Virus record (IMG/VR): IMGVR_UViG_3300045988_142192
Coordinates: 1-47,041 of that record
Source: a virus
Reading direction: 5' to 3' (one strand)
DNA length: 47,041 nucleotides
Part shown: in pieces, positions 608-45,517 of the stretch
How the letters are laid out: the number at the start of each line of letters is the position of its first letter
Position numbering within the stretch: position 1 is the first letter of the stretch
Position numbers and translations under genes: made by a program
The notes under the pieces: generated by a model
What the model was told of the DNA's origin: nothing
Seen by the model: only the letters and a program-made list of their open reading frames with translations
The model's database searches: none

Positions 608-728
608 AAAATAAAGGTGGGGATAATTCCTCACCTACTACTATTACTACTAATATTTTTATCATTTTTATATAAATTCTTTATAATATATTTTTCTTAT
701 ATTGTAGCAGATTTTAAGGGGGTTGACT

Positions 729-1700
729 ATGTTTAAACCGTTAATAGATGCTTTATTTGATGCAGTTCCAGTTGCTTGGGATATGTATTCTAATTTTATA
801 TATAGATTAGTTACTGGGAGAAAATTTGAAGATACTATTGAAGTTTTGGAGGGGGATATAATGGAAGTTGAAAATATAGTTAAATATGAATATATACCAA
901 CAGAGGAAATTAAAGATATGTCAAAAGAAATGAATGTAATTAAGTTTATCTTTATTGAAGGTGAAAAGGAAGGAATAAAAGCCTGTATAGGATATGACAT
1001 AGAAGGCAATTTAAAAAGTTTTGATATGTTAGAAGGTCATACAATGGTTGGAGGTGCTTCTAGGTGGGGCAAATCTAGCTTTTTAAATGTATTTATAACT
1101 AATATAACTAAAACATATACGAGAAATGAAGTTTGTTTTTTAGGTTGTGATTATAAAAAAGCAGATGTTTATTATTTTAGAAATTATAATAATTTTTTAG
1201 GCATGAGTACAAATAAAAAAGAATTTATAGCTCAAATAAAATGGCTAGAAAAAGAAATGAATAAAAGGGCTGATATATTAGACGAAGCTAATTGTAGGAA
1301 TGTAATAAATTATAATAAAAAACATGATACTAAAATTAGTTATATAATAGTTGTTATAGATGAACTTATTCAAGTTGTAAGTGATAAAGATTGCAAAGAT
1401 ATTCTTCATAAAGTTATGAGTAAGTGTGCGAGTTATGGAATTTACTTTTTATTAGCTACACAAGATTGCACAAAAGAAACTATAGGTAGATGTAAAATGA
1501 ATTGTAGTCAGATAGTAGGATTTCATACATTCGACCAAACAGACAGTGATACTTTAATTGGCAAGGGTTATGATTTACAAGATATAAATGTAAAAGGTAG
1601 ATGCAAAATAAAAAATAGTGAAGGTGTAGTTGAAACTCAAATATTTTATTTGGAAGAAGATGAAATAGATAAATTATTAAAACCTTATTTAAGAGAATAG
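729..1700 (+). CDS. FtsK/SpoIIIE-family DNA translocase-like ATPase (motor domain only, 323 aa)
   Basis: Walker A GGASRWGKSS, Walker B YIIVVIDEL, and an FtsK-like GIYFLLATQ..GRCKMNCSQIVGF block. The AAGGGGG SD sits 6 nt before ATG 729; the ORF track uses TTG 723. Confidence 0.8.
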   Translation: MFKPLIDALFDAVPVAWDMYSNFIYRLVTGRKFEDTIEVLEGDIMEVENIVKYEYIPTEEIKDMSKEMNVIKFIFIEGEKEGIKACIGYDIEGNLKSFDMLEGHTMVGGASRWGKSSFLNVFITNITKTYTRNEVCFLGCDYKKADVYYFRNYNNFLGMSTNKKEFIAQIKWLEKEMNKRADILDEANCRNVINYNKKHDTKISYIIVVIDELIQVVSDKDCKDILHKVMSKCASYGIYFLLATQDCTKETIGRCKMNCSQIVGFHTFDQTDSDTLIGKGYDLQDINVKGRCKIKNSEGVVETQIFYLEEDEIDKLLKPYLRE

Positions 1701-3738: not shown

Positions 3739-4434
3739 ATGGATATAAGATTACTAAAAGCTAATGAAATAGAGTGTAGAATAGGTACTTTTAAAGAAGG
3801 TAAGGGAATTAGTTTATTGCTTTACAAAGATGCTAGAGTTGACATGAGAATACTTGATGAAGTATTTGGGTTTGACGGTTGGGAAAGAGAACATCAACTT
3901 ATAGACGGTAAATTATTTTGCACAGTAAAAGTGTGGAGTGAAAAAAGGAATTGCTGGATAAGTAAGCAAGATGTAGGAACTGAAAGTAATACAGAAAAAG
4001 AAAAGGGGCAAGTATCAGACAGTTTTAAAAGAGCGTGTTTTAACTTGGGAATAGGTAGAGAATTATATACTTCGCCTTTTATATGGGTTCCAGCTTCAAT
4101 GGGGTATAGTAAATATGAAAAATTTGAAGTTAAAGAAATAGGCTATAATGATGATAGAGAAATAAATATGTTAGTTATAGTTGATAGTAAAGGTAAAGAA
4201 TGTTTTAGATTTGGAGATAAAACTAAGCAAGTAAAACAAGTAAAAAGAGAAGTTACAGAAACTATGGTAAAAGCACTTTACAAAATAGCTAATGATAAAG
4301 GTTATAGTGATGATATAGTTGAGAAAGCTTCTAAAAGAGATTATGGAAATAATGTAATAGATATATCAATGAAAAATTATATGACTTTAAAAGCTAAATT
4401 AGAAGGACTTGAAACTAAGAAAATAGGGGCTTGA
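3739..4434 (+). CDS. Rad52/Sak-like single-strand annealing protein (231 aa)
   Basis: KGQVSDSFKRACFNLGIGRELY resembles the conserved Rad52/DUF1071 annealing-protein motif. It sits in a recombination module with a nuclease and SSB. Confidence 0.6.
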   Translation: MDIRLLKANEIECRIGTFKEGKGISLLLYKDARVDMRILDEVFGFDGWEREHQLIDGKLFCTVKVWSEKRNCWISKQDVGTESNTEKEKGQVSDSFKRACFNLGIGRELYTSPFIWVPASMGYSKYEKFEVKEIGYNDDREINMLVIVDSKGKECFRFGDKTKQVKQVKREVTETMVKALYKIANDKGYSDDIVEKASKRDYGNNVIDISMKNYMTLKAKLEGLETKKIGA

Positions 4435-4694: not shown

Positions 4695-5318
4695 ATGGGG
4701 GAGAAAAAAGGAATTGATATAAAAAAATGCAAGTATAAAATTGTAGTTGATAGCAGGGAGAAAGTTAATAAGCACATACTAAATAGTTTTGAAAAAGGTT
4801 TTGAATATAAAGTATCTCACCACGATATGTATAGAGGGAAGAAATCTACTTATTCAGGCCCTATACAATACTACATTCAAGAAAAAGGCCTTAAAGTTGG
4901 AGATTATACTATTGCAGTACAATTGCCCAACGGTGAAGTTATTAATTTTCAAGATAAAATAGTTATAGAAAGAAAAAAAGATTTGAATGAGTTAGCATCA
5001 AACTTATACGATTCAAAAAGTAAAGACGAAGAAGGTCTTACAAGATTTGAGAGAGAGCTTAAAAAAGGATATGAAAAAGGAATAAAAATGCACTTACTTA
5101 TAGAAACTGATAATATGATAGATAAGATATTATCGTCAAAGCATTTTAGATACGATAAAGCTTCTAAAGTATCACCTAAAAGCTTTCAAATGATGCTTTT
5201 AAGTTTATGTAATAGATATAATGTAACAGTTTGGTACACAGATAAGAAAAACTCGGCAAGATTAATACACGACCTACTTTATGTGTATAGCAGAGAATAT
5301 CTGAAAAATATTGATTAA
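4695..5318 (+). CDS. ERCC4/XPF-type nuclease domain protein (207 aa)
   Basis: IVVDSREK ... VGDYTI ... VIERKKDLNELASNL fits the ERCC4 GDxn-ERKxxxD signature. Confidence 0.6.
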   Translation: MGEKKGIDIKKCKYKIVVDSREKVNKHILNSFEKGFEYKVSHHDMYRGKKSTYSGPIQYYIQEKGLKVGDYTIAVQLPNGEVINFQDKIVIERKKDLNELASNLYDSKSKDEEGLTRFERELKKGYEKGIKMHLLIETDNMIDKILSSKHFRYDKASKVSPKSFQMMLLSLCNRYNVTVWYTDKKNSARLIHDLLYVYSREYLKNID

Positions 5319-5658: not shown

Positions 5659-6378
5659 ATGAGTTATACAATTGTAGATAATGAAATAATTAGAGCAGAT
5701 TTAAAATTTACGCCGAAAATAGTCTTAATAGCTATATTAAGTTATCATAATAAAGAAAAGGGGTACTCTTATCCAAGCCATAGTGATTTGATGCGAGATT
5801 GCTGCATAAAAGATAAGAATACGCTTATAAAAGCTATAAAAGAACTAGAAAATTTAGGATATTTAAGAAAAGAAACTATTAAAGGGGTTGGAAATAGATA
5901 TTACATTAAGGATGTTGTGAAAAACAATACTACTGAAAAAATAAGTAGTGTGAAAAACCCAACTACACCAGTAGGAAAAACCCAACTGGAGGTGTATGAA
6001 AAACCCAACACAATAAATACTAAAACAAATACTAAAACAAATATTAATAATAAAAAGAAACAAATATACAAAGATTTATCTTTTATAGATTTAAGCTTAG
6101 TAAAAGTAACAGAAGAAGAGTATACCAAGTTAATCGAGTTAGCGAAAGGTGATACTGAATTGATACATGATAAAATGCTAAGTTTGGAAGTAGGGATAGC
6201 TAACAAGAAAAAAAAGTATTTAGGATATAAAAATCATTATTTAACATTAAGGCAGTGGATAAACAAAGATAACAAAAAAACACCTACTGCAATAGGTGCT
6301 GAAAATAAAAATATTAAAGTTAATCCTAGTATATGCAACAATAGAAGAAAATATACTCAAAGTTGCGATATTGGGTAG
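5659..6378 (+). CDS. Phage replication initiator / replisome organiser (winged-helix N-terminus, 239 aa)
   Basis: The N-terminus (PKIVLIAILSYHNKEKGYSYPSHSDLMRDCCIKDKNTLIKAIKELENLGYL) is winged-helix-like. Iterons lie inside the linker-coding region. A primase-helicase gene follows. Confidence 0.6.
   Translation: MSYTIVDNEIIRADLKFTPKIVLIAILSYHNKEKGYSYPSHSDLMRDCCIKDKNTLIKAIKELENLGYLRKETIKGVGNRYYIKDVVKNNTTEKISSVKNPTTPVGKTQLEVYEKPNTINTKTNTKTNINNKKKQIYKDLSFIDLSLVKVTEEEYTKLIELAKGDTELIHDKMLSLEVGIANKKKKYLGYKNHYLTLRQWINKDNKKTPTAIGAENKNIKVNPSICNNRRKYTQSCDIG
5917..6011. repeat. Iteron array inside the initiator gene
   Basis: GAAAAACCCAAC occurs at 5952, 5975 and 5998, with exact 23-bp phasing. A degenerate copy, GAAAAACAATAC, is at 5919. 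Confidence 0.8.
6015..6044. repeat. Tandem 12-bp repeat AAATACTAAAAC x2.5
   Basis: Read directly from the sequence. It encodes NTKTNTKTNI in the initiator linker. Confidence 0.8.
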
Positions 6379-6389
6379 GGGGAAGATAT

Positions 6390-8192
6390 ATGAATTTTAA
6401 AAATATAATTGATGATATAAAAAAATATATAGATGCTGAACAGGTTAAAAATAAAATAGCTACTGATTTAGGATTAAAATTTAAAAGCAATAAATGTTTA
6501 TGTTTTAATCATTCTGAAAAACATGAATCTATGAGTTATTATGCTAAAGGTAAATATTATAAATGTTTTAGTTGTGGTTTCCAGTACGACATATTTAATC
6601 ACTATCAACAATACTATAATTTATCATTCCTAGAGGCTGTAAAATCCATTGTAAGAGATTTTAATTTAAATATAAATATAACTATCAACGAGTCAGATAG
6701 AAAGCCTAAAAAACCTCCTACAAAGCACAATAGTTATAATGATGCAATATTAAATTATTGCAATAAAAGAAGCATATCGAAAGCTACATTAGATTATGTT
6801 AGAGTTAAGGGAAATTTTAACAATAAAGATGGAAATAGTGTATGTTTTGAATATAGAAATGAATTAGGAGAACATTTATGTAATAAGTATAGATTTACTT
6901 CCAAAAATGCTAATCCTAAAATGAAATTTGAAGAAGGGACTAATGTAAATACTTTATTCAATATGGATAAGGTAAATATATCAGAGCCTTTATTAATAAC
7001 AGAAGGTGAATTTGATTGTTTAAGTGCTATAGAGGCAGGCTTTAAAAATGCAGTATCAATACCAAGTGGAGTAAATTCAACAAATCAATGGATTACAAGT
7101 AACTGGACTTTTATTGAACAGTTTGAAGAAGTAATCATATGGTTTGATAATGATGAGCCTGGAATAAAAGGTGCTAGAGAAGTATTTAATAGACTTCCTA
7201 ACGCTAGTGTAAAAATAGTTAGATGCGAAGTAGCTAATGATATAAATGAATTATTGCACAAGTATGGGAAGTTAGCAGTATTAAAACAAATAGAAAAAGC
7301 TTCTACACCTGTACTGGAAGGCGTTGCAACGCTTGATATGATAGAGGACTTTGATGTACATGAAGCAGAAACTCTAAAAACTGGTATAGATTACATTGAT
7401 GATAAGCTTGTGGGAATGGTATTTGGAAGTCTTAATGTATTAAGTGGTAGAAATGGTAGTGGTAAATCAACTATATTAAATCAAATATATATTGCAGAAG
7501 CTATTGCTCAAGGTTATAAGACATTTCTATTTAGTGGTGAGTTGATAGGGGGGAATGTTAAGTATTGGCTACTTCAAACTTTAGCAAATGAGGAACAATT
7601 TGCCGAGTATACTGCTAAAGATGGTCATAAATATAAAAAAGTTACTATTCAAGCAAAAGAAAAAATAGTCAATGATATGAAGGATAGATTTTTCTTATAT
7701 GATAGTGATGATTATAGAATTGAAGCTATAATTGAAAAAATGACGGTATTAGCTAAAAGATATGGAGTGAGGGTGTTTGTTATAGACAACCTTATGACAG
7801 TCGAAAGTAGTTTAAAGGATAAATATGAAGCTGAAACTGATATAGTTAAGAAATTAAAGAATTTTGCTAAAAAGTATAATGCTTTAGTTCATTTAGTTGC
7901 ACATCCTAGAAAGTCTATGAATGATGAAATTGAAAAAGACGATGTAGCAGGAAGTGCTAATATAACTAACTTAGCTGATTATGTAACTACAATATCAAGA
8001 GCGAAAGATGATGTAGTTGAATATGATGCAATACTTAAAATACTGAAGAATAGACATACAGGAGTAAACGTAGGTAAAAAGTTAATGTTTAATATAGAGA
8101 GAAAAAGATTTTACAGTGGTGAAACTGGAAAAGAGTTAAACAAAAGATATTTAGATTTATGGGAGGAAGTTCAAGGGACATGGGAAGATTAG
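6390..8192 (+). CDS. Bifunctional primase-helicase (zinc finger + Toprim + DnaB/RecA-like ATPase, 600 aa)
   Basis: CLCFNH..H...CFSCG zinc finger, Toprim ITEGEFDCLS...WFDNDEPG, Walker A GRNGSGKST and Walker B VFVIDNLM. The GGGGGAAG SD precedes ATG 6390. Confidence 0.85.
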   Translation: MNFKNIIDDIKKYIDAEQVKNKIATDLGLKFKSNKCLCFNHSEKHESMSYYAKGKYYKCFSCGFQYDIFNHYQQYYNLSFLEAVKSIVRDFNLNINITINESDRKPKKPPTKHNSYNDAILNYCNKRSISKATLDYVRVKGNFNNKDGNSVCFEYRNELGEHLCNKYRFTSKNANPKMKFEEGTNVNTLFNMDKVNISEPLLITEGEFDCLSAIEAGFKNAVSIPSGVNSTNQWITSNWTFIEQFEEVIIWFDNDEPGIKGAREVFNRLPNASVKIVRCEVANDINELLHKYGKLAVLKQIEKASTPVLEGVATLDMIEDFDVHEAETLKTGIDYIDDKLVGMVFGSLNVLSGRNGSGKSTILNQIYIAEAIAQGYKTFLFSGELIGGNVKYWLLQTLANEEQFAEYTAKDGHKYKKVTIQAKEKIVNDMKDRFFLYDSDDYRIEAIIEKMTVLAKRYGVRVFVIDNLMTVESSLKDKYEAETDIVKKLKNFAKKYNALVHLVAHPRKSMNDEIEKDDVAGSANITNLADYVTTISRAKDDVVEYDAILKILKNRHTGVNVGKKLMFNIERKRFYSGETGKELNKRYLDLWEEVQGTWED

Positions 8193-10658: not shown

Positions 10659-11060
10659 ATGAATAAAATAATAATCAGTGGTCGTTTAGTAAGAGATGCA
10701 GAGCTAAGTTATATAGCTTCTACTGCTACACCTAAAATGAATTTTTCTTTAGCAGTAGAAAGAAATTATCAAAAGGATAAAAATAATAAAAAAGTTGATT
10801 TTATAAATTGCGAACAACTTGGGAAGCACGTTGAAAACTTATGTCAGTATGTAACAAAAGGAAAACAAATATTAGTAGAAGGTGAGTTAAACATTGATAA
10901 TTATGAAAAAGACGGAGAGAAAAGAAGTTTCACAAAAGTAAAAGTTGATAGATTAGAGTTTTTAGGTGGAAATTCTAATACTAATACTGAAAACAAGCAA
11001 GGGAATGAGTATAAGGTAGAAGAATTCAACGATTTTGACGAAGATGAAATACCATTTTAG
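10659..11060 (+). CDS. ssb: Single-stranded DNA-binding protein
   Basis: The OB-fold N-terminus MNKIIISGRLVRDAEL and the acidic tail ending DEDEIPF are typical of bacterial and phage SSB. Confidence 0.9.
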   Translation: MNKIIISGRLVRDAELSYIASTATPKMNFSLAVERNYQKDKNNKKVDFINCEQLGKHVENLCQYVTKGKQILVEGELNIDNYEKDGEKRSFTKVKVDRLEFLGGNSNTNTENKQGNEYKVEEFNDFDEDEIPF

Positions 11061-18377: not shown

Positions 18378-18824
18378 TTGAGTTTAACCATAAAACAAGA
18401 AATATTCGTGCAGAGATTGATTGAAGGCTATTCTCAAAGAGAAGCCTATAAATTCGCATATAATTGCGAGAAAATGAAAGATGAAAGCATAGATATAGAA
18501 GCTTCTAAATTATTTAATAACCCTAAGATTTCCCTAAGGTATCAAGAGTTATTAGATGAATATAAGGAAAAAGCTAAATGGAACAGAAGTAAAGCAGAAG
18601 AAAAGCTTATGTGGTTATTAGATAAATCACAAGAAGATATAGAATATAGGGGGTTGAAACAAGCTAACTCGAATTCAATGCTAAATACAATAAAAGAACT
18701 AAATACTCTCACTGATTTATACCCTAAGAAAAATAAAGAAGAAGATATTAATTTAGAAGATAGAGAAGCTGAAAAGATAGCTAATGCAATACTTGAATTG
18801 AGGAAAAGAAATGGAATTAGATAA
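18378..18824 (+). CDS. terS: Terminase small subunit
   Basis: LTIKQEIFVQRLIEGYSQREAYKFAY is a typical terS N-terminal HTH. TTG start after an AAGGAGGTG SD. It overlaps terL. Confidence 0.75.
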   Translation: MSLTIKQEIFVQRLIEGYSQREAYKFAYNCEKMKDESIDIEASKLFNNPKISLRYQELLDEYKEKAKWNRSKAEEKLMWLLDKSQEDIEYRGLKQANSNSMLNTIKELNTLTDLYPKKNKEEDINLEDREAEKIANAILELRKRNGIR

Positions 18825-20037
18825 TTATACACCTAAACAAATTGAAGTATTAGAAAGTTTTGCAATAGATAATCCTAAAATTCTTATTTGTAGTGGGGCA
18901 AAAAGAGCAGGAAAAACATTTATACTTATAAAAATATTCTTAGCCCATGTATCTTTATTTAGAAACAAAGGAGTTAGCTTTATAATTGGTGGGACTACTC
19001 AATCGTCTATTAGAAGGAATATATTAAATGACATGGAATTGATTTTAGGTAGGGAAATAACTTTAGGTAAGGATAGTTCTTTTAAATTGTATGGGAATAA
19101 AATCTATTGCTTTCATGGGGCTAATGCAGATAGTTACAAAGCTATGAGAGGGTTTACAAGTGCAGGGGCTTTACTTAATGAAGCTACTACTTTACATGAT
19201 ACTTTTGTAAAAGAAGCTATTTCAAGATGTTCTTACGAAGGTGCTAGGATATTTATGGACACGAATCCAGAGAATCCTACCCATACAGTAAAAGTTGATT
19301 ACATAGACAAAGACGGTCAATTACTTAGCAATGGACAATTAAACATAAAAGCTTTTAATTTCACTTTATACGATAATACATTTTTAAATAAAGAGTATAT
19401 AGAAAGTATTGAAGCTTCTACTCCAAGTGGAATGTTTTTTCAACGAGATGTGATGGGGACATGGGTAGCCTCAGAAGGTGTTGTGTATCAAGACTTTGAT
19501 AAAGATAAACATTACATAAAAGAAGTTGATATAAAAGATATTCAGTTTAAAAAATACTTTTGTGGCGTTGACTTTGGTTGGGAACATTATGGTTCAATAG
19601 TAGTAATTGGAAAAGATTTAGAAGATAATTATTATTTAATAAAAGAGTATGCTTTTCAACACAAAGATATAGAAGATTGGATTAATATTGCAAAAGAAAT
19701 TAAATCTAAATACGGGAACATTAATTTCTATTGCGACCATGCTAGACCTGATTATATAGATAAGCTTAAAAGAAGCGGTATAAGAGCAATAAATGCTAAT
19801 AAAGAAGTATTAGAAGGTATTTCAATGATAGCTAAGTTATTTAAAACAGATAAGCTTTTTATACTTGAAGATAATGTAACTAGATTTAAAGATGAAATAT
19901 ATAACTATGTTTGGCAAAAAGGTAAAGATGACCCAGTTAAACAATTTGATGATGTTTTAGATAGTTTAAGATATGCTATTTATTCAGAATCAAAGAGAAC
20001 TGGAAAAATGTTTGATAGAAACAAATATAACGTATAG
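18811..20037 (+). CDS. terL: Terminase large subunit
   Basis: Walker A CSGAKRAGKT, a C-terminal nuclease-type region, and the expected size and position. Confidence 0.9.
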   Translation: MELDNYTPKQIEVLESFAIDNPKILICSGAKRAGKTFILIKIFLAHVSLFRNKGVSFIIGGTTQSSIRRNILNDMELILGREITLGKDSSFKLYGNKIYCFHGANADSYKAMRGFTSAGALLNEATTLHDTFVKEAISRCSYEGARIFMDTNPENPTHTVKVDYIDKDGQLLSNGQLNIKAFNFTLYDNTFLNKEYIESIEASTPSGMFFQRDVMGTWVASEGVVYQDFDKDKHYIKEVDIKDIQFKKYFCGVDFGWEHYGSIVVIGKDLEDNYYLIKEYAFQHKDIEDWINIAKEIKSKYGNINFYCDHARPDYIDKLKRSGIRAINANKEVLEGISMIAKLFKTDKLFILEDNVTRFKDEIYNYVWQKGKDDPVKQFDDVLDSLRYAIYSESKRTGKMFDRNKYNV

Positions 20038-20047
20038 GAGGTGTATT

Positions 20048-21415
20048 ATGAGGAAAATAAAAATAGATAAAGATTATACTTTAACTAACGATTTAATACT
20101 TGATTTAATAGATAAACATTCAGAAGAAAAATCAAGATTAGAAAAGCTTCTAAAATATTACAATAATAAAAATGACAAGATAAGCAATAGAGTATATAAA
20201 AATAAAAATAAGCCTAAAAATAGATTATCGCACCCTTACGCACAATATATAACAGATACTGCGGTTGGCTATTTATTAGGTAAACCTATAGCTTATACTA
20301 CAGAAGACAAAAAGCTTTTAGAAGAAATAACTGATATATTTAAGTATAATGATGAAGCTGACAACAATACAACTTTAGCAAAGATGGCTTCTATATATGG
20401 TTATGCTTATGAAATAATGTACATAGATAAATTTGCTAAGCCTAGGTTTAAAGCGATAGACCCTTCACAGTTAATAGTTTGTTATGATAACACTTTAGAA
20501 GAAAATATAATATTAGCTATTAGATATTATGATGAAATAGTTAGAGTTAATGATAGAGATGAAACTGTAACTAGGTTAGAAATATACACTAAACCTACTC
20601 AAAATGACAAAGGGCAAATAGTTAGCAATGGTAAAATTATAAGAGGAACTATAGAAAATAACTATATAACTTTATCAGATGAAGAAGATTGTTATTTTGA
20701 TGATATACCAGTAAATGTATATATCAATAATGACGAGTTGTATGGGGACTTTGAAAAAGTAATTAGTTTGATAGACGCTTATGACCAAAGCCAATCTGAT
20801 ACTGCTAATGATTTTGAACTGTTTACTAATTGCATGTTAGTAGTTAATGGGGAGTTAATAGACGACGAACAAGCTAAAGATTTAAATGACATAAATTTAA
20901 TACAATTTTTAAATTCAGATAGTGATGCTAAATACCTTATAAAAGATATACAAGATACTGCTTTAGAGAATTATAAAAATAGGTTAAATGAAGATATACA
21001 CCGTTTTAGCTTCGTTCCTAATATGACTGATGAAAATTTCAGCAATAACGCTTCAGGTATCGCGATGAAATTTAAGCTTATGGGGCTTGAAAATTTAATA
21101 GGAGTTAAGGAAAGCAAATTTAGAAAAGGTTTAATGAGAAGAATAGAATTATTATGTGCTTATGCTAAGATGAAAAATAATAGTGATTATTCTTATTTAG
21201 CTATTGAGCCAGTCTTTACTAGAAATACTCCTAACAATGAATTAGAGTTATCTCAAATAATGCAAAACTTAGATGGAATTTTAAGTGAAGAAACTATAAT
21301 TGGGATGTCGCCTAGAGTTAGTGATATTCAAGCAGAAATAGAGAAAAAAGAAAAAGAAGCTAATAAGCTTTATGAGGATAATTATTCTGAATTAGGTGTT
21401 GCAGATGAAGAATAA
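20048..21415 (+). CDS. Portal protein (SPP1 gp6-like)
   Basis: 455 aa directly after terL. ATG 20048 follows an AGGAGGTG SD; the track start at 19973 overlaps terL and has no SD. Confidence 0.8.
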   Translation: MRKIKIDKDYTLTNDLILDLIDKHSEEKSRLEKLLKYYNNKNDKISNRVYKNKNKPKNRLSHPYAQYITDTAVGYLLGKPIAYTTEDKKLLEEITDIFKYNDEADNNTTLAKMASIYGYAYEIMYIDKFAKPRFKAIDPSQLIVCYDNTLEENIILAIRYYDEIVRVNDRDETVTRLEIYTKPTQNDKGQIVSNGKIIRGTIENNYITLSDEEDCYFDDIPVNVYINNDELYGDFEKVISLIDAYDQSQSDTANDFELFTNCMLVVNGELIDDEQAKDLNDINLIQFLNSDSDAKYLIKDIQDTALENYKNRLNEDIHRFSFVPNMTDENFSNNASGIAMKFKLMGLENLIGVKESKFRKGLMRRIELLCAYAKMKNNSDYSYLAIEPVFTRNTPNNELELSQIMQNLDGILSEETIIGMSPRVSDIQAEIEKKEKEANKLYEDNYSELGVADEE

Positions 21416-22298
21416 TTTATCTAGTGAAGAGTATTGGCAAAAAAGGGAAGCCTATAAACTCAAAAAAGGCTTAAAAGATTTAAAGAAAATAGAAAAAAAA
21501 TTAGTTGATGAATATAAAAAAGCTATGAATGAGATAGGCAAAGAAATTAGTAATTTATTTTATAAATATGCTAAAGATAATAACCTATCCTATTCTGATG
21601 CAAAAAAATATTTAAACAGTAGCGAATTTAGAGAATTTAAGCATGATTTAAAAACTTATATGAAGCTTATAGAAGAATATGCAGATGATGAACTTTTACT
21701 TGAATTAAATACTTTAGCTATGAAAAGCCGTATAAGCCGTTTAGAGGAAATGTTTTATCAGTGTGGTAAATACATTAATGAAGTATATGAAAGCACTAAT
21801 AAAAGGCTTCAAATAGCTTACAGTAGCACTATAAAAGATAATTATTACCAAACTATATATGATATGCACAAAGCAATAGGTGTTGGTGCGAGTTTTTCAT
21901 ATATTGATAATGATATGATAAAAGAAATATTAGCTTTTCCCTGGAGTGGCAGACATTATAGTCAAAGGTTATGGAGTAACAGAACTAAATTAAAAAATGC
22001 TATGATTGAAGAACTTACTCAAATGCTTATACAAGGGAAAGGTGTAAAAGAAACTTCTAAAGCATTATCTAAAAGATTAGATGCAGATTTAAAGAATTGT
22101 ATTAGGCTTATACAAACTGAACACGCTTATTTTATGGAAATCGCATCACAAAAGGCTTATGAGGAATGTGATGTAACTAAATATAAAATACTTGCGACAT
22201 TAGATAAACGTACAAGTGAAATATGTCAAAGGTTAGATGGGGAGGTGTTTAATGTTAAGGATGCAATAGTTGGTGTAAATATGCCTCCTTTTCATTGA
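21405..22298 (+). CDS. Head morphogenesis protein (SPP1 gp7 / Mu F-like), truncated by an in-frame TGA
   Basis: LDKRTSEICQRLDGEVF..NMPPFH ends at TGA 22296-22298. The rest of the conserved motif continues in frame downstream. Confidence 0.7.
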   Translation: MKNNLSSEEYWQKREAYKLKKGLKDLKKIEKKLVDEYKKAMNEIGKEISNLFYKYAKDNNLSYSDAKKYLNSSEFREFKHDLKTYMKLIEEYADDELLLELNTLAMKSRISRLEEMFYQCGKYINEVYESTNKRLQIAYSSTIKDNYYQTIYDMHKAIGVGASFSYIDNDMIKEILAFPWSGRHYSQRLWSNRTKLKNAMIEELTQMLIQGKGVKETSKALSKRLDADLKNCIRLIQTEHAYFMEIASQKAYEECDVTKYKILATLDKRTSEICQRLDGEVFNVKDAIVGVNMPPFH

Positions 22299-22442
22299 CA
22301 TCCTTATTGCAGAACGACAACTATACCATATATGCAAGAGGATTACTCAACTAGATTTGCAAGAGATAGCAAAGGTAAAAGAATGGAAATAGATTCAAAT
22401 ATGACTTACAAAGAATGGGCTAAGATTTACAAAGTAGATTAA
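22299..22442 (+). pseudogene. In-frame 3' remainder of the gp7/MuF-like gene (47 codons after the TGA)
   Basis: HPYCRTTTIPY... completes the PPxHPxCRC-type motif. It is in the same frame as 21405-22298 and has no start or SD of its own. Confidence 0.6.
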
Positions 22443-22462
22443 CAATAGTTAGTCTTTTTTTA
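22436..22462 (+). terminator. Intrinsic terminator
   Basis: AGATTAAC / GTTAGTCT stem (one G-U pair) followed by a T-run. Confidence 0.55.
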
Positions 22463-22556
22463 TGCTTAAATTTATTAATGCTTATACAGAGTAAAAGCTA
22501 AAGAAAATAACTATATATATTTAGTAATTATATTAGTAATTGTTATAGTATTTGTT

Positions 22557-22657
22557 GTGTGTGAAAAACCCAACTGGTGTAGTATGAAAAAACCATACTA
22601 CCCGTGTGTGAAAAAACCAACTGGTACGATTTAACCAGTATGAAAAAACCATACTAC
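22557..22657. repeat. Second iteron array (four TGAAAAA(A)CC(C)A-type repeats) in a non-coding island
   Basis: Cores lie at 22563, 22586, 22610 and 22642, spaced 23/24/32 bp. GTGTGAAAAACCCAACT at 22559-22575 is identical over 17 nt to 5948-5964 in the initiator gene. GTAGTATG-aaaaaac-CATACTAC is a palindrome. Confidence 0.8.
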
Positions 22658-22676
22658 TAAAACCATACTGCTTAAC

Positions 22677-22700
22677 GAAGCTATCAAGCTTCTTTTTTTA
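22677..22700 (+). terminator. Intrinsic terminator
   Basis: GAAGCT-atca-AGCTTC followed by TTTTTTT. Confidence 0.6.
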
Positions 22701-22815
22701 TTGTCTTTTACTTATTAGACGTTAAAGAAATAAGGTTTATTAATTATATTTAAAGTTGACGAACTTAAAACGGATATTATAGCTTACTATAGCTTTAAAA
22801 TAGGAGGATTAAAAA

Positions 22816-23421
22816 ATGGAAAATTTAGAAAATAACGTTGTTAATAATGAAGTACAAGAAAATACAGAGGTAGAAGCTAAAGGTGTTAAGACTTTTACAC
22901 AAGATGAACTTAATAAAATAGTTGCAGAAAGAATAGCTAAAGAAAAAAAGAAATTAGAAGCTGAAAGATTAAAGCAACAAGAGATGCAAGAAAAGCTTAT
23001 AGAAGAAGAATCTGAAAAACTTGCTAAAATGACAGAAGCTGAAAAGATAAAGGCAAAAGCCGAAAGAGAACGTAAAAAGTTTGAAGAAAAAGTTGCTAGA
23101 TATGAAACAGAAAAGAAAGCTTTCGAGCAAGAGAAAATTAAAAATGAAACTATGAAACTTTTAAGTGAAAAAGGACTACCAATTGAATTATGTCAATTCA
23201 TAAAATCAGATACTGCTGATGAAATAATGGGAAATGTAGAAGTGTTTGAAAAATGTTGGTCAGAAGCTATAGAAAAATCAGTAAACGCTAGATTAAGAAC
23301 AAGTGGTGAATTAAAAACTTCAACTACTACTAAAGCTACTTACACAGTAGACCAATTAAGAAATATGTCAGCAGAAGAAATAAACAAAAACTGGGATAAG
23401 ATAAAAAATAATTTTAGATAA
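22816..23421 (+). CDS. Head scaffolding protein
   Basis: Lys/Glu-rich coiled coil of 201 aa immediately before the capsid gene. Confidence 0.7.
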   Translation: MENLENNVVNNEVQENTEVEAKGVKTFTQDELNKIVAERIAKEKKKLEAERLKQQEMQEKLIEEESEKLAKMTEAEKIKAKAERERKKFEEKVARYETEKKAFEQEKIKNETMKLLSEKGLPIELCQFIKSDTADEIMGNVEVFEKCWSEAIEKSVNARLRTSGELKTSTTTKATYTVDQLRNMSAEEINKNWDKIKNNFR

Positions 23422-23459: not shown

Positions 23460-24236
23460 ATGGCAGTAACTAACTTTATACCCTCAATTTGGGAAGCAAG
23501 ATTATTAGCAAAATTCCATGAAAGAAGTATAACAGACTTAATAACTACAGCACCTACAAAAGTAGAAGGAAACAAAGTAATATTCAATAAGGTATCAGAT
23601 GTAGCTATAAACAAATACACTGGAACTGTAGATTTTGAAGATTTAACAACTTCAAAAGTTGAATTAGCTTTAGATAATAAAAATTATTGGGCATTTAAAG
23701 TTGATGATGTAGATGCAGTTCAATCAGCAGGAGAATTAATAGACCCACACGTTGAAGAAGCAGGATATGGATTACAAGAAGCTACTGATAAGTTTGTATT
23801 AACAGAAGCTTTAAGAACTACTAATGAAGTAACTAAAGAAGATTCTGACAAAGCATATGATTTAATAGTAAAAGCTAATACTGCTTTAAATAAAAATAAA
23901 GTGCCTAAGGCTCAAAGATATGCAGTTATAAATGCAGAAGTTTTACAAGATTTACAACTAGATTCAAGATTTACATTACAATATACAATATTAGAAAACG
24001 GAATAATAGAAGGTGCTAACATAAACGGTACTCAATTAGTATTCTCTGAAGAATTAAATGGTGGAAAATTTGCTATAGTAGTATTACATAAATCAGCTAT
24101 AGGATATGCTAAGCAATTAGAAGAAACTGAAGCTATGAGATTACAAAACTCTTTTGCTGATGGTATAAGAGGACTACAAGTTGATGGTGTTAAAACTTTA
24201 AGAGAAGAAGCTATAGTAAAATACGTTCAAGAGTAA
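23460..24236 (+). CDS. Major capsid protein
   Basis: Its position after the scaffold gene and the N-terminus FIPSIWEARLLAKF are typical of a capsid family. A terminator hairpin follows. Confidence 0.7.
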   Translation: MAVTNFIPSIWEARLLAKFHERSITDLITTAPTKVEGNKVIFNKVSDVAINKYTGTVDFEDLTTSKVELALDNKNYWAFKVDDVDAVQSAGELIDPHVEEAGYGLQEATDKFVLTEALRTTNEVTKEDSDKAYDLIVKANTALNKNKVPKAQRYAVINAEVLQDLQLDSRFTLQYTILENGIIEGANINGTQLVFSEELNGGKFAIVVLHKSAIGYAKQLEETEAMRLQNSFADGIRGLQVDGVKTLREEAIVKYVQE

Positions 24237-43960: not shown

Positions 43961-43988
43961 ATTATATTGTATATGAGTTTATCCACAA
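43961..43988 (-). promoter_or_regulatory. Leftward promoter TTGTGG-16-TATAAT overlapping the DnaA boxes
   Basis: -10 complement at 43961-43966. The -35 complement at 43983-43988 lies within the first two DnaA boxes. Confidence 0.45.
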
Positions 43989-44005
43989 TATCCACATAAT
44001 CCACA
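43979..44005. promoter_or_regulatory. Three abutting DnaA boxes
   Basis: TTATCCACA (perfect consensus), ATATCCACA and TAATCCACA sit head to tail. Confidence 0.7.
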
Positions 44006-44043
44006 AATATTGTTTATAGCTTAAACCGTTGAAAATACTGCAC

Positions 44044-44152
44044 ACGTTCCGTGGAATTGACGGTATAAGTAAAAATATAATACCCACACATTCCGTGGAA
44101 TTGACGGGGTACATTCCGTGGAATTGACGGGGTTAATTCGATGGAATTGAAC
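44044..44152. repeat. Iteron array TTCCGTGGAATTGACGG x3 exact plus one degenerate copy
   Basis: Cores lie at 44047, 44091 and 44114. The 23-mer ACATTCCGTGGAATTGACGGGGT is exactly tandem at 44088-44133. A degenerate copy is at 44137-44152. Confidence 0.85.
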
Positions 44153-44162
44153 AAAGATAGAT

Positions 44163-44188
44163 AAGTTATTATAGGGAAGTTATTATAG
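44163..44188. repeat. Direct repeat AAGTTATTATAG x2 in the AT-rich tract
   Basis: Copies at 44163-44174 and 44177-44188. Confidence 0.7.
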
Positions 44189-44227
44189 ATATATATATAA
44201 TAAAAAAATAGCTTTTAATAAAAAACA

Positions 44228-44256
44228 TTTACATATTTTATTTGATAGTGTATAAT
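44228..44256 (+). promoter_or_regulatory. Rightward promoter TTTACA-17-TATAAT
   Basis: -35 at 44228-44233 and -10 at 44251-44256. It reads into gene 44287. Confidence 0.55.
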
Positions 44257-44286
44257 AATATTAACAAACAAATAAGGAGGTTAAAA

Positions 44287-44622
44287 ATGAATATCAATTT
44301 TGAAATGGCTATAAGTAATAACATTGATGTAAAAGATATAACTCTTATAAGTTACTTATCTTTAATATCAGAAAAAGAAAAATTAGGTGAAGAGTTTGAA
44401 TTGCCATATAACAGAATAATAAATGATTTGCCTATTATATTTAATAGTAAAAGTTATGAAGCTAATTCCGTTAAGCTTAGAAGAATGTTAGATAAAGAAG
44501 GTATGAAAAAATTTATAACAAGGGAAATTTTAAAAAAGGGTAGAGAATTTGGAACTGTTGTTTTATTTAAGCTTAATAAATCAAATATAGAGAAACTTAA
44601 TGTAAAAGGAATAGTTAAATAA
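44287..44622 (+). CDS. Origin-adjacent small protein (111 aa), possible winged-helix DNA binder
   Basis: ATG 44287 follows an AAGGAGG SD. The track's TTG 44242 lies inside the promoter. It is the first gene after the iterons. Confidence 0.45.
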   Translation: MNINFEMAISNNIDVKDITLISYLSLISEKEKLGEEFELPYNRIINDLPIIFNSKSYEANSVKLRRMLDKEGMKKFITREILKKGREFGTVVLFKLNKSNIEKLNVKGIVK

Positions 44623-44638: not shown

Positions 44639-45517
44639 ATGAAATATATACACGGCTTTTTAAGTAGTAGATTGAAAGAGGAAAAAATAAGCCATGATGA
44701 AAGCTTAGTTATAAGATATTTATTAAATTTTATAAATAGTAACAAAATGGAAAAAATACTTGTAAACGGTGAATTTTATTATTGGGTAAAATATGAAAAA
44801 GTTGCAACAGATTTAGATATATTAGGAATTAAAAAGCAGGCTATAAGTGATATGTTAATTTATGATTTAGGAGAAAAGCCAAGTGATTGGGAGGAAAGGC
44901 TTAACTCAATGAAAGAAAGTAGTAGAAAGAAAAAAATGAAATCTAAATTTATAGGAGTATTTAAAAGATATACTAAAAAAGATGCAGAAGGTACTAAGTC
45001 TTATTTTGCACCTACTGAAAAATTATATTCTTTATTGCCAAACATAACAGAAGATGATGAAGATATGAAAAATAAAAAAGCTTCTACTGTGCCACCAGTA
45101 AAAGCAGATAATAAAAACAATGATTTTAATAATAGTATACCACAAAACGAAGAAAAAAATGCAGATAAAAATGAAAAAAATAAAGAAAGTGAAGTTGTGG
45201 AAATTATAAACAATAGTTGTGTAAATATCAGAAAGCAAGACTTGAAAAAATGTGAAGAAGAATTTACTGATATAGATAAATTGAAAGAAGCTTTAGAAAT
45301 ATGCGAGGTCAATAATTCTCATGGTATAAAAGCTTTAAGAATGGCTTATAAATATGGAAATGTTAATATCAATAATGCGAACAAGAAACAAAGTACAATA
45401 TTTATGGCAGATAGTAAGGTTATTGTAGATGGAAAATTAAAAAGCGTAGCTGATATGACTGAAAAAGAATTTGAGCAAAAGCTTCGAGAAAAATGGGGAA
45501 GAAACTTTATAGGTTAA
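44639..45517 (+). CDS. Candidate plasmid-type replication initiator (292 aa)
   Basis: Its position follows the DnaA boxes, iterons and AT-rich tract. The N-terminus (HDESLVIRYLLNFINSNKMEKILVNGEFYYWVKYEKVATDL) is winged-helix-like, followed by a low-complexity linker and a C-terminal domain. I recognised no family signature. Confidence 0.4.
   Translation: MKYIHGFLSSRLKEEKISHDESLVIRYLLNFINSNKMEKILVNGEFYYWVKYEKVATDLDILGIKKQAISDMLIYDLGEKPSDWEERLNSMKESSRKKKMKSKFIGVFKRYTKKDAEGTKSYFAPTEKLYSLLPNITEDDEDMKNKKASTVPPVKADNKNNDFNNSIPQNEEKNADKNEKNKESEVVEIINNSCVNIRKQDLKKCEEEFTDIDKLKEALEICEVNNSHGIKALRMAYKYGNVNINNANKKQSTIFMADSKVIVDGKLKSVADMTEKEFEQKLREKWGRNFIG

What the first reader, a model, noticed from the sequence alone, without database searches (positions are those of the whole stretch)
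22443..22815. A second iteron array, sharing 17 nt with the initiator-gene iterons, sits in a terminator-bounded non-coding island inside the head-gene module
A 370-bp ORF-free gap lies between the gp7/MuF-like gene and the scaffold gene. Hairpin terminators bracket it at 22436-22462 and 22677-22700.

The gap holds four repeats of the type TGAAAAA(A)CC(C)A(A/T)AC. Their cores are at 22563, 22586, 22610 and 22642, spaced 23/24/32 bp.

GTGTGAAAAACCCAACT at 22559-22575 is identical to 5948-5964 inside the initiator gene, where the same 12-mer is repeated three times at exact 23-bp phase. The 9 nt that follow (CTGGTGTAG) are the reverse complement of the 9 nt that follow the gene-internal copy (CTACACCAG).

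Two of the repeats are embedded in palindromes (GTAGTATG-7 nt-CATACTAC).

An origin-like element 16 kb away from its initiator, in the middle of the late operon, is unusual. It could be the true lytic origin, a handcuffing or copy-control locus, or a centromere-like site.
Basis: partly seen in the sequence, partly recalled or inferred. Interest (0 to 1): 0.65.

Follow-up and report, generated by a model that had tools for sequence, protein, structure and literature searches.

The report
Second origin copy in head genes
The gap between the head-morphogenesis gene and the scaffold gene holds a rearranged second copy of the replication origin found inside the phage's initiator gene, the same two-origin layout already described for Bacillus phage SPP1 (oriL/oriR), so it is real but not a new kind of element.

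Summary
The 373-bp gap (22443-22815) has no credible ORF and is bracketed by two hairpin/T-run terminators. It carries four TGAAAAA(A)CC-type repeats, 23/24/32 bp apart, next to an 83% A+T block.

Both blocks come from the origin inside the initiator gene. The repeat block aligns with 5948-6009. The A+T block, reverse-complemented, aligns with 6007-6047.

Four long contigs carry a different origin type (CTAACAACAAT) inside their initiator gene. Each has an island of that same type, three of them at this slot (the upstream gene is not read for the fourth), collinear over 80-170 nt. One of them has an unrelated portal, scaffold and capsid. So island and initiator origin co-vary.

The island is better conserved than its flanks (96% against 85-91% for the MuF gene and 59% for the leader).

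This matches SPP1, where gp38 binds oriL inside gene 38 and oriR in the non-coding stretch after gene 7 (MuF), upstream of scaffold gene 11.

Best reading: a second binding region for the phage's own initiator. It would act as a second origin or, as proposed for SPP1, as a fork barrier that triggers the switch to concatemer synthesis. Binding and function are inferred, not shown.

It is a new member of a known kind, of modest interest.

The parts
5659..6378 (+). Replication initiator gene. N-terminal winged-helix DNA-binding domain, a low-complexity linker that carries the primary origin, and a C-terminal domain.
   Evidence: Pfam HTH_36, E 2e-11; PHROG phrog_270/428 'replication initiation protein'. 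It directly precedes the primase-helicase gene.
5918..6009 (+). Repeat array of the primary (in-gene) origin. It holds four TGAAAAA cores (5918, 5934, 5951, 5997) plus the one-mismatch copy GGAAAAACCCAAC at 5974. The three (T/G)GAAAAACCCAAC copies (5951, 5974, 5997) are in exact 23-bp phase.
   Evidence: The three copies fall in three different reading frames, so the repeat is kept at DNA level, not peptide level. The stretch 5916-6060 is 145/145 identical to L047, while the flanking coding parts are 93-94%.
6010..6060 (+). A+T-rich block of the in-gene origin, with the 12-bp repeat AAATACTAAAAC x2.8 (6015-6047). Presumed DNA-unwinding element.
   Evidence: TRF. Same layout as SPP1 oriL, which has repeats followed by an AT-rich DUE (PMC5737612).
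6363..8192 (+). Primase-helicase (zinc-ribbon/Toprim/DnaB_C fusion), the enzyme the initiator presumably recruits.
   Evidence: It is 84% identical to the L053 homologue, although the initiator DNA-binding domain and origin type differ there.
22436..22462 (+). Hairpin plus T7 terminator ending the MuF-like gene. Left boundary of the island.
   Evidence: Fold dG -6.8, matched by 4/200 shuffles. The same hairpin is kept in L005 and L007/L009.
22464..22556 (.). A+T-rich block of the island (83% A+T against 72% for the window), with the 12-bp repeat TAGTAATTGTTA x2.9 (22522-22556). It is an inverted homologue of the in-gene A+T block.
   Evidence: The reverse complement aligns with 6007-6047, score 45 against a null maximum of 42. 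96.5% identical to L001.
22557..22669 (.). Repeat block of the island: A1 22557-22578, B1 22579-22601 (8-bp palindrome arms), A2 22604-22625, palindrome ACTGGT-8-ACCAGT 22620-22639, B2 22637-22657, partial B 22659-22669.
   Evidence: It aligns collinearly with in-gene 5948-6009, score 54. The B unit TGAAAAAACCATACTAC resembles in-gene TGAAAAACAATACTAC at 5918. 95.8% identical to L001.
22677..22700 (+). Hairpin plus T7 terminator at the right boundary of the island. TCTTTTTTTAT is a direct repeat of 22453-22463.
22701..22815 (+). Leader and ribosome-binding region of the scaffold gene. Not part of the origin copy.
   Evidence: The same leader follows the other-type islands in L004/L005, and is replaced in L001 (59% identity).
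3739..4434 (+). Rad52/Erf-type single-strand annealing protein. A candidate partner if the island works as a fork barrier (inferred).
4695..5318 (+). ERCC4-type structure-specific nuclease. A candidate processor of stalled forks (inferred).
10659..11060 (+). Single-stranded DNA-binding protein.
   Evidence: phrog_44, E 3e-42.

Best explanation
The island is a second, detached and partly rearranged copy of the replication origin that lies inside the initiator gene (5918-6060). It serves as a second binding region for that initiator, the equivalent of oriR in Bacillus phage SPP1.

Proposed mechanism: the winged-helix domain of the 5659-6378 protein binds the TGAAAAA(C/A)CC(A/C)A-type sites. At the in-gene copy, next to the primase-helicase gene, this starts theta replication. 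At the island, 16.6 kb downstream, the same protein assembles on four sites beside an A+T-rich block. There it either fires a second origin or, as proposed for SPP1, forms a tight complex that stalls the fork coming from the first origin. The phage's annealing protein, ERCC4 nuclease and SSB would then convert the stalled fork into recombination-dependent concatemer synthesis for headful packaging.

Shown: sequence homology of the two sites, co-variation across relatives, conservation, and position.
Inferred: binding, and which of the two activities is used.
For: 1. Shared motif family: 7 hits against 1.28 expected, reached by 0/100 shuffles, five of them in the two arrays.
2. Both components of the in-gene origin recur in the island. 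The repeat block scores 54 on the + strand and the A+T block 45 on the - strand, against a null maximum of 42. TRF finds a 23/24-bp array next to a 12-bp array at both sites.
3. The in-gene repeats fall in all three reading frames, and the segment is 145/145 conserved against 93-94% for its flanks. This shows DNA-level selection, as expected of an origin.
4. Co-variation. Four long contigs (138726, 151297, 150405, 3300029820_000108) have the CTAACAACAAT type inside the initiator gene. Each has a matching island: three between the MuF and scaffold genes, and in 151297 directly upstream of the scaffold gene, after a small ORF, with the upstream gene not read. For three of them the alignment scores 104-144 over 80-170 collinear nt. 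For 151297 it scores only 57, but the island carries the same Y repeats. Cross-type scores are 23-38. The window and the L001 contig have the TGAAAAACCCAAC type at both sites.
5. Contig 150405 has a different portal, MuF, scaffold family (PF06810) and HK97-type capsid, yet holds the island at the same slot.
6. The island is 96% identical between the window and L001, against 85-91% for the MuF gene and 59% for the leader.
7. Precedent: SPP1 gp38 binds oriL (inside gene 38) and oriR with nanomolar affinity. Both consist of direct repeats plus an AT-rich DUE. oriR lies after gene 7, in a segment bracketed by transcription signals (PMC6316719, PMC5737612, PMC3485210). With the same scoring, the SPP1 gene 7-8 gap against gene 38 gives 78 over 71 nt.
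8. The window encodes the SSAP, nuclease and SSB needed for the SPP1-type switch.
Against: - There are no binding or replication data.
- In the window the homology is short: 63 nt with about 70% matches, plus 40 nt inverted. The 17-mer alone is reached by 3% of shuffles.
- The A+T block lies on the opposite side of the repeats, and is inverted, relative to the in-gene origin. The island may therefore not open like the primary origin.
- The window's initiator shows no detectable similarity to SPP1 gp38.
- The co-variation rests on six genomes, two origin types and about three lineages, and five of the six contigs come from one metagenome data set.
- More distant relatives with homologous scaffold genes lack any island (L007-L009 and most of L010-L045), so the element is dispensable for this head module.
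Confidence: 0.7

Rival explanations
1. The island is a small transcription unit (moron-like) that makes a structured non-coding RNA of about 145 nt, running from a weak promoter (TTAGTA-17-TATAGT, about 22523-22551) to the 22677-22700 terminator. The resemblance to the origin is incidental, or serves RNA-level mimicry.
For: The 22556-22700 + strand folds into three hairpins plus a terminator, dG -34, z -5.4. A terminator follows directly. The island sits between two terminators, like a moron.
Against: - The opposite strand folds equally well (z -5.7), so the structure reflects DNA palindromes rather than a strand-specific RNA.
- The promoter scan found no site reading into the repeats; the -35 matches only 3 of 6.
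- There is no Rfam family hit.
- The sequence is identical in sense, not antisense, to the initiator mRNA.
- The other-type islands at the same slot share the repeats/A+T architecture but not the hairpins.
- The L095/L099 variant has ACTGGTACCAGT with no loop.
Confidence: 0.07
2. The island is a non-functional leftover of a recombination event that copied part of an initiator gene into a recombination-prone junction of the head module.
For: - In relatives the island can still carry a 92-aa ORF that is a paralogue of the initiator's N-terminal domain (36-40% identity, E 2e-13 to 6e-17). This shows the islands derive from initiator-gene fragments.
- The slot is a mosaic junction: the leader is 59% and the MuF tail 85% identical between the window and L001.
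- Homing-endonuclease genes sit next to the island in L095/L099.
- Distant relatives lack the island.
Against: - The non-coding island is better conserved than the adjacent coding DNA (96% against 85-91%).
- Island type matches the resident initiator type in all six genomes where both are visible, including one with an unrelated head module.
- In SPP1 the equivalent site is bound by the initiator with nanomolar affinity (PMC6316719).
Confidence: 0.12
3. The island is an origin decoy or incompatibility determinant. It would titrate the initiator of co-infecting phages that use the same origin type, or control the phage's own initiation by handcuffing the two arrays.
For: Extra iteron arrays control copy number by handcuffing in iteron plasmids (own knowledge). 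Cloned phage origins protect lactococci against phage, the 'Per' phenotype (own knowledge). Some relatives add a DNA-binding-domain-only paralogue with its own interleaved repeats.
Against: A decoy aimed at rivals would not need to match the resident initiator. The in-gene origin already supplies the same sites. No integrase, repressor or partition genes were recognised among the ORFs scanned, so a resident prophage or plasmid state that would benefit from such control is not established.
Confidence: 0.07
4. The island is a centromere-like partition site, or a regulatory site through which the initiator modulates read-through into the scaffold-capsid genes.
For: It has repeats with palindromes and lies between two terminators, directly upstream of the most highly expressed late genes.
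Against: No ParA/ParB-type genes were found in the ORFs scanned. The scaffold leader (22701-22815) is exchanged independently of island type.
Confidence: 0.03

Closest known systems
Bacillus subtilis phage SPP1 oriL / oriR, bound by the origin-binding protein gp38 (G38P)
   Same: - The primary origin lies inside the linker-coding part of the initiator gene. A second copy lies in a non-coding stretch of the late region.
- Both consist of direct repeats plus an A+T-rich block.
- The second copy lies after the gene 7 (MuF-like) terminator and upstream of the scaffold gene, bracketed by transcription signals.
- The two sites lie 13 kb (SPP1) and 16.6 kb (here) apart, in the same gene order: origin, early genes, terminase, portal, MuF, second origin.
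- The portal is SPP1-type, and the MuF protein is 23% identical to gp7, E 9e-14.

   Different: - The initiator here has an HTH_36 N-terminal domain and no detectable similarity to gp38. It lacks gp38's Phg_2220_C domain, although initiators of close relatives (L063, L068) have it.
- The helicase is a primase-helicase fusion, not gp39 plus gp40.
- SPP1 oriR is collinear with oriL, and three moron genes (8-10) follow it. Here the A+T block is inverted relative to the repeats and no genes follow.
- The repeat sequences are unrelated.
Satellite phage P4 ori / crr (own knowledge, not checked here)
   Same: Two separated clusters of the same initiator-binding repeats on one small genome. Both are bound by the initiator (alpha protein), and the second is needed in cis.
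   Different: P4 alpha is a primase-helicase-origin-binding fusion. crr is 4.5 kb from ori and is not in a head-gene module. There is no sequence or protein relation.
Iteron-plasmid control loci (P1 incA, F incC, R6K multiple origins) (own knowledge; review PMC4980987 listed)
   Same: Extra arrays of the origin's iterons bind the same initiator away from the firing origin.
   Different: Those arrays are plasmid copy-number devices that act by handcuffing. Here the context is a tailed-phage genome with recombination-dependent late replication, and no evidence of copy control.
Lambda ori inside gene O, and other phage origins inside initiator genes (own knowledge)
   Same: The origin repeats are embedded in the linker-coding region of the initiator gene and followed by an A+T-rich region.
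   Different: Lambda has no second detached copy.

Membership tests
SPP1-type dual origin (oriL in the initiator gene plus oriR in the late region) | The second site repeats the sequence motifs of the origin inside the initiator gene | tested here: met
   Motif count 7 against 1.28 expected. A 63-nt collinear alignment scores 54, against a null maximum of 42. With the same scoring SPP1 gives 78.
SPP1-type dual origin (oriL in the initiator gene plus oriR in the late region) | Direct repeats adjoin an A+T-rich unwinding element at both sites | tested here: met
   The island's 22464-22556 block is 83% A+T with 12-bp repeats, homologous to in-gene 6007-6047. Caveat: it is inverted and lies on the other side of the repeats.
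SPP1-type dual origin (oriL in the initiator gene plus oriR in the late region) | The second site lies in a non-coding segment between the gene 7 (MuF) homologue and the scaffold gene, bracketed by transcription signals | tested here: met
   For SPP1.
SPP1-type dual origin (oriL in the initiator gene plus oriR in the late region) | The initiator binds both sites specifically | not testable with these tools
   Indirect support only: island type co-varies with the initiator's in-gene origin type in 6 of 6 genomes.
SPP1-type dual origin (oriL in the initiator gene plus oriR in the late region) | The initiator is a homologue of gp38 (Phg_2220_C C-terminal domain) | tested here: not met
   BLASTP finds no similarity. 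gp38 hits Phg_2220_C, while the window protein hits only HTH_36. Initiators of relatives L063/L068 do carry Phg_2220_C. Membership is therefore by architecture and function, not by protein homology.
SPP1-type dual origin (oriL in the initiator gene plus oriR in the late region) | The second site stalls the fork and triggers the theta-to-sigma switch (a model even for SPP1) | not testable with these tools
   Only the gene set is compatible: SSAP, ERCC4 nuclease and SSB.
Structured small RNA gene | Strand-specific structure, a promoter, and a match to a described family | tested here: not met
   Both strands fold equally well (z -5.4 and -5.7). No promoter call. No Rfam hit.
DnaA-dependent origin | DnaA boxes (TTATCCACA) in or next to the repeats | tested here: not met
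   No box with up to 1 mismatch in 22443-22815 or 5880-6100. DnaA-type boxes do occur elsewhere, at 43980-44006.
Plasmid-type partition site | ParA/ParB-type genes that could act on the site | tested here: inconclusive
   None among the roughly 39 ORFs scanned against at least one of Pfam, PHROGs or NCBIfam. Not every ORF was scanned.

The most novel reading that the evidence does not exclude
The island is a portable 'second-origin cassette' under selection to match whichever initiator module the phage carries. It would be placed after the MuF gene in unrelated head modules because an initiator-bound barrier there sets where replication forks break and concatemer synthesis (and module exchange) begins.

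In relatives the cassette has gained a DNA-binding-domain-only paralogue of the initiator. That paralogue's own repeats are interleaved with the initiator's sites, which would give a regulated barrier or a device against competing phages.

If so, comparative genomics would provide the first evidence outside SPP1 that oriR-type sites are functional and positionally constrained. It would also reveal a new accessory protein class.
Probability: 0.2. Interest if true: 0.6.

Novelty: new member of a known kind. Interest (0 to 1): 0.35.

Why it matters
The role of SPP1 oriR is still a model: gp38 bound there is proposed to stall the fork and trigger concatemer synthesis.

Here the same two-site layout appears in uncultured, 27% G+C Clostridium-associated phages. 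The second site co-varies with the initiator's own origin and keeps its place after the MuF gene, even in an unrelated head module. That is independent comparative evidence that such second sites are selected, not accidental.

It also gives annotators a simple rule. A repeat-bearing gap between the MuF and scaffold genes should be compared with the linker-coding region of the initiator gene.

It does not reveal a new kind of system.

Tried and rejected
- Rfam, gathering thresholds, whole window: no hit. ARAGORN: no tRNA or tmRNA.
- blastn of 22300-22900 against 50,697 GenBank phage records: no match, so no annotated relative could be used.
- Small-RNA reading: rejected, because both strands fold equally well and no promoter is called.
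- Homology of the window initiator to SPP1 gp38: none by BLASTP or Pfam. Search of PDB sequences: nothing below E 0.04. NCBIfam: nothing.
- DnaA boxes in either array: none.
- A third origin type (GTAACTAATGCGTATGTTATAGGTAAC, inside the initiator gene of contig 157494): only the two in-gene copies were found, so no island could be tested there.
- The second repeat type of the relatives' islands (TTATGTGATAT): no counterpart inside any initiator gene; the other hits were unrelated.
- Genome-collection scan with a two-repeat pattern: apart from chance hits in unrelated genomes, it returned only the L001 contig (NZ_CAAGHK010000093.1, 'uncultured Clostridium sp.').
- Metagenome scan: three short relevant contigs (L095, L099, L102). 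The rest were chance hits.
- Contigs 110673 and 022982 (L002, L006) do not reach the replication module, so they could not be used for the co-variation test.

Full report
**1. What the window is.** The window is a 27% G+C tailed-phage genome.
- Early replication and recombination block: Rad52/Erf-type annealing protein 3739-4434, ERCC4 nuclease 4695-5318, initiator 5659-6378 (HTH_36; PHROG 'replication initiation protein'), primase-helicase 6363-8192, and SSB 10659-11060.
- SPP1-type head block: small terminase 18378-18824, large terminase 18811-20037, SPP1-type portal 19973-21415, MuF-like gene 21396-22442, DUF4355 scaffold 22816-23421, and capsid 23460-24236.
- A near-identical contig (L001, IMG/VR 3300045988_153650) is also in the genome collection as NZ_CAAGHK010000093.1, 'uncultured Clostridium sp.'.

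**2. The observation.** The 373-bp gap has no credible ORF.
- It holds two 22-nt A units (GTGTGTGAAAAA(C/A)CCAACTGGT) and two 21-nt B units (AGTATGAAAAAACCATACTAC), with a partial third B.
- The TGAAAAA cores are at 22562, 22585, 22609 and 22641.
- The 17-mer shared with 5948-5964 is real, and so is the 23-bp phasing of three copies inside the initiator gene.
- The right terminator is clear. The left one is a weaker 8-pair hairpin with a T7 run.
- The second palindrome has 6-bp arms, not 8.
- The 17-mer alone is only mildly unusual: 10 of 300 shuffles reach it. The motif family is not chance: 7 hits against 1.28 expected, reached by 0 of 100 shuffles.

**3. The island is a copy of the in-gene origin.**
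- The island's repeat block aligns collinearly with 5948-6009 (score 54).
- The reverse complement of its A+T block (83% A+T, 12-bp repeats) aligns with 6007-6047, the A+T-rich 12-bp repeats that follow the in-gene array (score 45).
- The best score against 62 other 720-nt windows is 42. Both components of the origin are therefore present, but in a different relative orientation.
- The in-gene array has the marks of a DNA-level element. Its three copies fall in three reading frames, and the 145-nt segment is identical between the window and L047 while the flanking coding parts are 93-94%.

**4. Relatives.**
- Phages with 92-98% identical scaffold proteins (L002-L006) carry a different island in the same position, upstream of the scaffold gene. 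It is built of CTAACAACAAT repeats, a spacer, more repeats, an A+T-rich run and a terminator.
- The same sequence, in the same order, lies inside the initiator genes of L049/L053 and of the resident initiators of contigs 138726 and 151297.
- A pattern for the in-gene spacer found it on exactly the four long contigs that have this island type: 138726, 151297, 150405 and 3300029820_000108.
- Island against resident in-gene origin scores 104-144 over 80-170 collinear nt for three of them. Contig 151297 scores only 57, but its island carries the same repeats. Cross-type comparisons score 23-38.
- Contig 150405 shares the large terminase with the window but has a different portal, MuF, PF06810 scaffold and HK97-type capsid. 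Its island is still between the MuF and scaffold genes.
- Island type therefore follows the initiator's origin type in all six genomes where both can be seen.
- Between the window and L001 the island is 96% identical, the MuF gene 85-91%, and the scaffold leader 59%.
- More distant relatives (L007-L045) mostly have 50-200-nt gaps without repeats.

**5. Comparison with what is known.**
- SPP1 has oriL inside gene 38 and oriR in a non-coding stretch of the late region. Both are direct repeats plus an AT-rich unwinding element, and both are bound by gp38 with nanomolar affinity.
- oriR and three moron genes form a segment 'bracketed between transcriptional signals' that interrupts the head genes (PMC6316719; PMC5737612).
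- In the SPP1 record the repeats lie in the 335-bp gap after gene 7, whose product is 23% identical to the window's MuF protein (E 9e-14). Scaffold gene 11 follows downstream.
- With my scoring, that gap aligns with gene 38 at 78 over 71 nt.
- The proposed role is that gp38 bound at oriR stalls the fork from oriL. Recombination proteins then restart synthesis in the sigma mode (PMC3485210).
- The window reproduces this layout and encodes an annealing protein, a structure-specific nuclease and an SSB.
- It differs in the initiator: no similarity to gp38 and no Phg_2220_C domain, although relatives L063 and L068 have that domain. It also differs in having a primase-helicase fusion, and in the inverted A+T block.

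**6. Rivals.**
- Small RNA: weak. Both strands fold equally well, no promoter is called, and no Rfam family matches.
- Neutral remnant: it fits the evident origin of the islands from initiator-gene fragments, since some relatives keep a 92-aa paralogue of the initiator's DNA-binding domain. It does not explain the conservation or the co-variation.
- Decoy, handcuffing and centromere readings cannot be excluded, but have no specific support.

**7. Verdict.** The arrangement is the SPP1 oriL/oriR design in a new, uncultured phage group. It is a new member of a known kind. Binding and function remain inferred.

Noticed in passing
window 22296-22298 (within MuF-like gene 21396-22442): An in-frame TGA sits inside the conserved MuF motif (PPFH-TGA-HPYCRTT). 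The next 47 codons stay in frame and conserved down to the TAA at 22440-22442. The same TGA is kept in L001, L002 and L004 despite diverged flanks; L005 and L006 have a Val codon there. TGA is a minority stop here (4 of 47 ORFs of at least 100 aa), and the context TGA-C is leaky. This is a candidate programmed read-through or recoding site. By eye, no SECIS-like hairpin is conserved.
   Followed up: partly
window 43980-44260: A third origin-like or operator-like region. It has three tandem DnaA-box-like 9-mers (TTATCCACA ATATCCACA TAATCCACA), then four ~23-bp repeats CAC(G/A)TTCCGTGGAATTGACGG, an A+T-rich run, and a strong promoter-like site (TTTACA-17-TGTATAAT). That promoter reads into ORFs 44242-44622 and 44639-45517, which have no family hits. 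It could be the early promoter/operator region or a DnaA-dependent origin.
   Followed up: partly
L002/L003/L006/L058 and L004 (islands upstream of the scaffold gene in relatives): Some islands carry a 92-aa ORF that is a paralogue of the initiator's N-terminal DNA-binding domain only (36-40% identity; E 2e-13 and 6e-17). They also carry a second repeat type (TTATGTGATAT or AGACAGTTGAT; TAGACAAT in L060) interleaved with the resident initiator's repeats in both halves of the island. No counterpart of the TTATGTGATAT repeat inside any initiator gene was found.
   Followed up: partly
L059/L061 and L052: The same CTAACAACAAT-type origin cassette also occurs at other positions: directly upstream of a small-terminase-like gene (L059/L061) and upstream of an HNH-type gene (L052). 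The cassette therefore moves between slots. The contigs are too short to show the initiator.
   Followed up: no
L095 and L099 (metagenome contigs Ga0079226): A variant of the window-type island (ACTGGTACCAGT without a loop; CCACACTAC) follows homing-endonuclease-like genes. L095 keeps only the last ~13 codons of the MuF gene between two terminators.
   Followed up: no
window 22453-22463 and 22691-22701: An 11-nt direct repeat, TCTTTTTTTAT, flanks the island. Relatives without an island (L007/L009) have a single copy, AGTCTTTTTTTTATTGTC, at the junction. This fits insertion or exchange of the cassette by recombination at the terminator T-runs.
   Followed up: partly
window 22745-22775, and L004, L005, L007-L009: TTGACGAACTTAAAACGGA, upstream of the scaffold ribosome-binding site, is conserved even in 55%-identity relatives, where it abuts the Shine-Dalgarno sequence directly. 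It is therefore unlikely to be a -35 element. Its function is unknown.
   Followed up: no
window 723-1700: An FtsK/SpoIIIE-family ATPase gene lies in the early region; a 312-aa ORF with a similar Walker-A (P-loop) motif, noted by eye and not scanned against any family library, lies in L053. No integrase was found among the ORFs scanned, so the lifestyle is unresolved.
   Followed up: no
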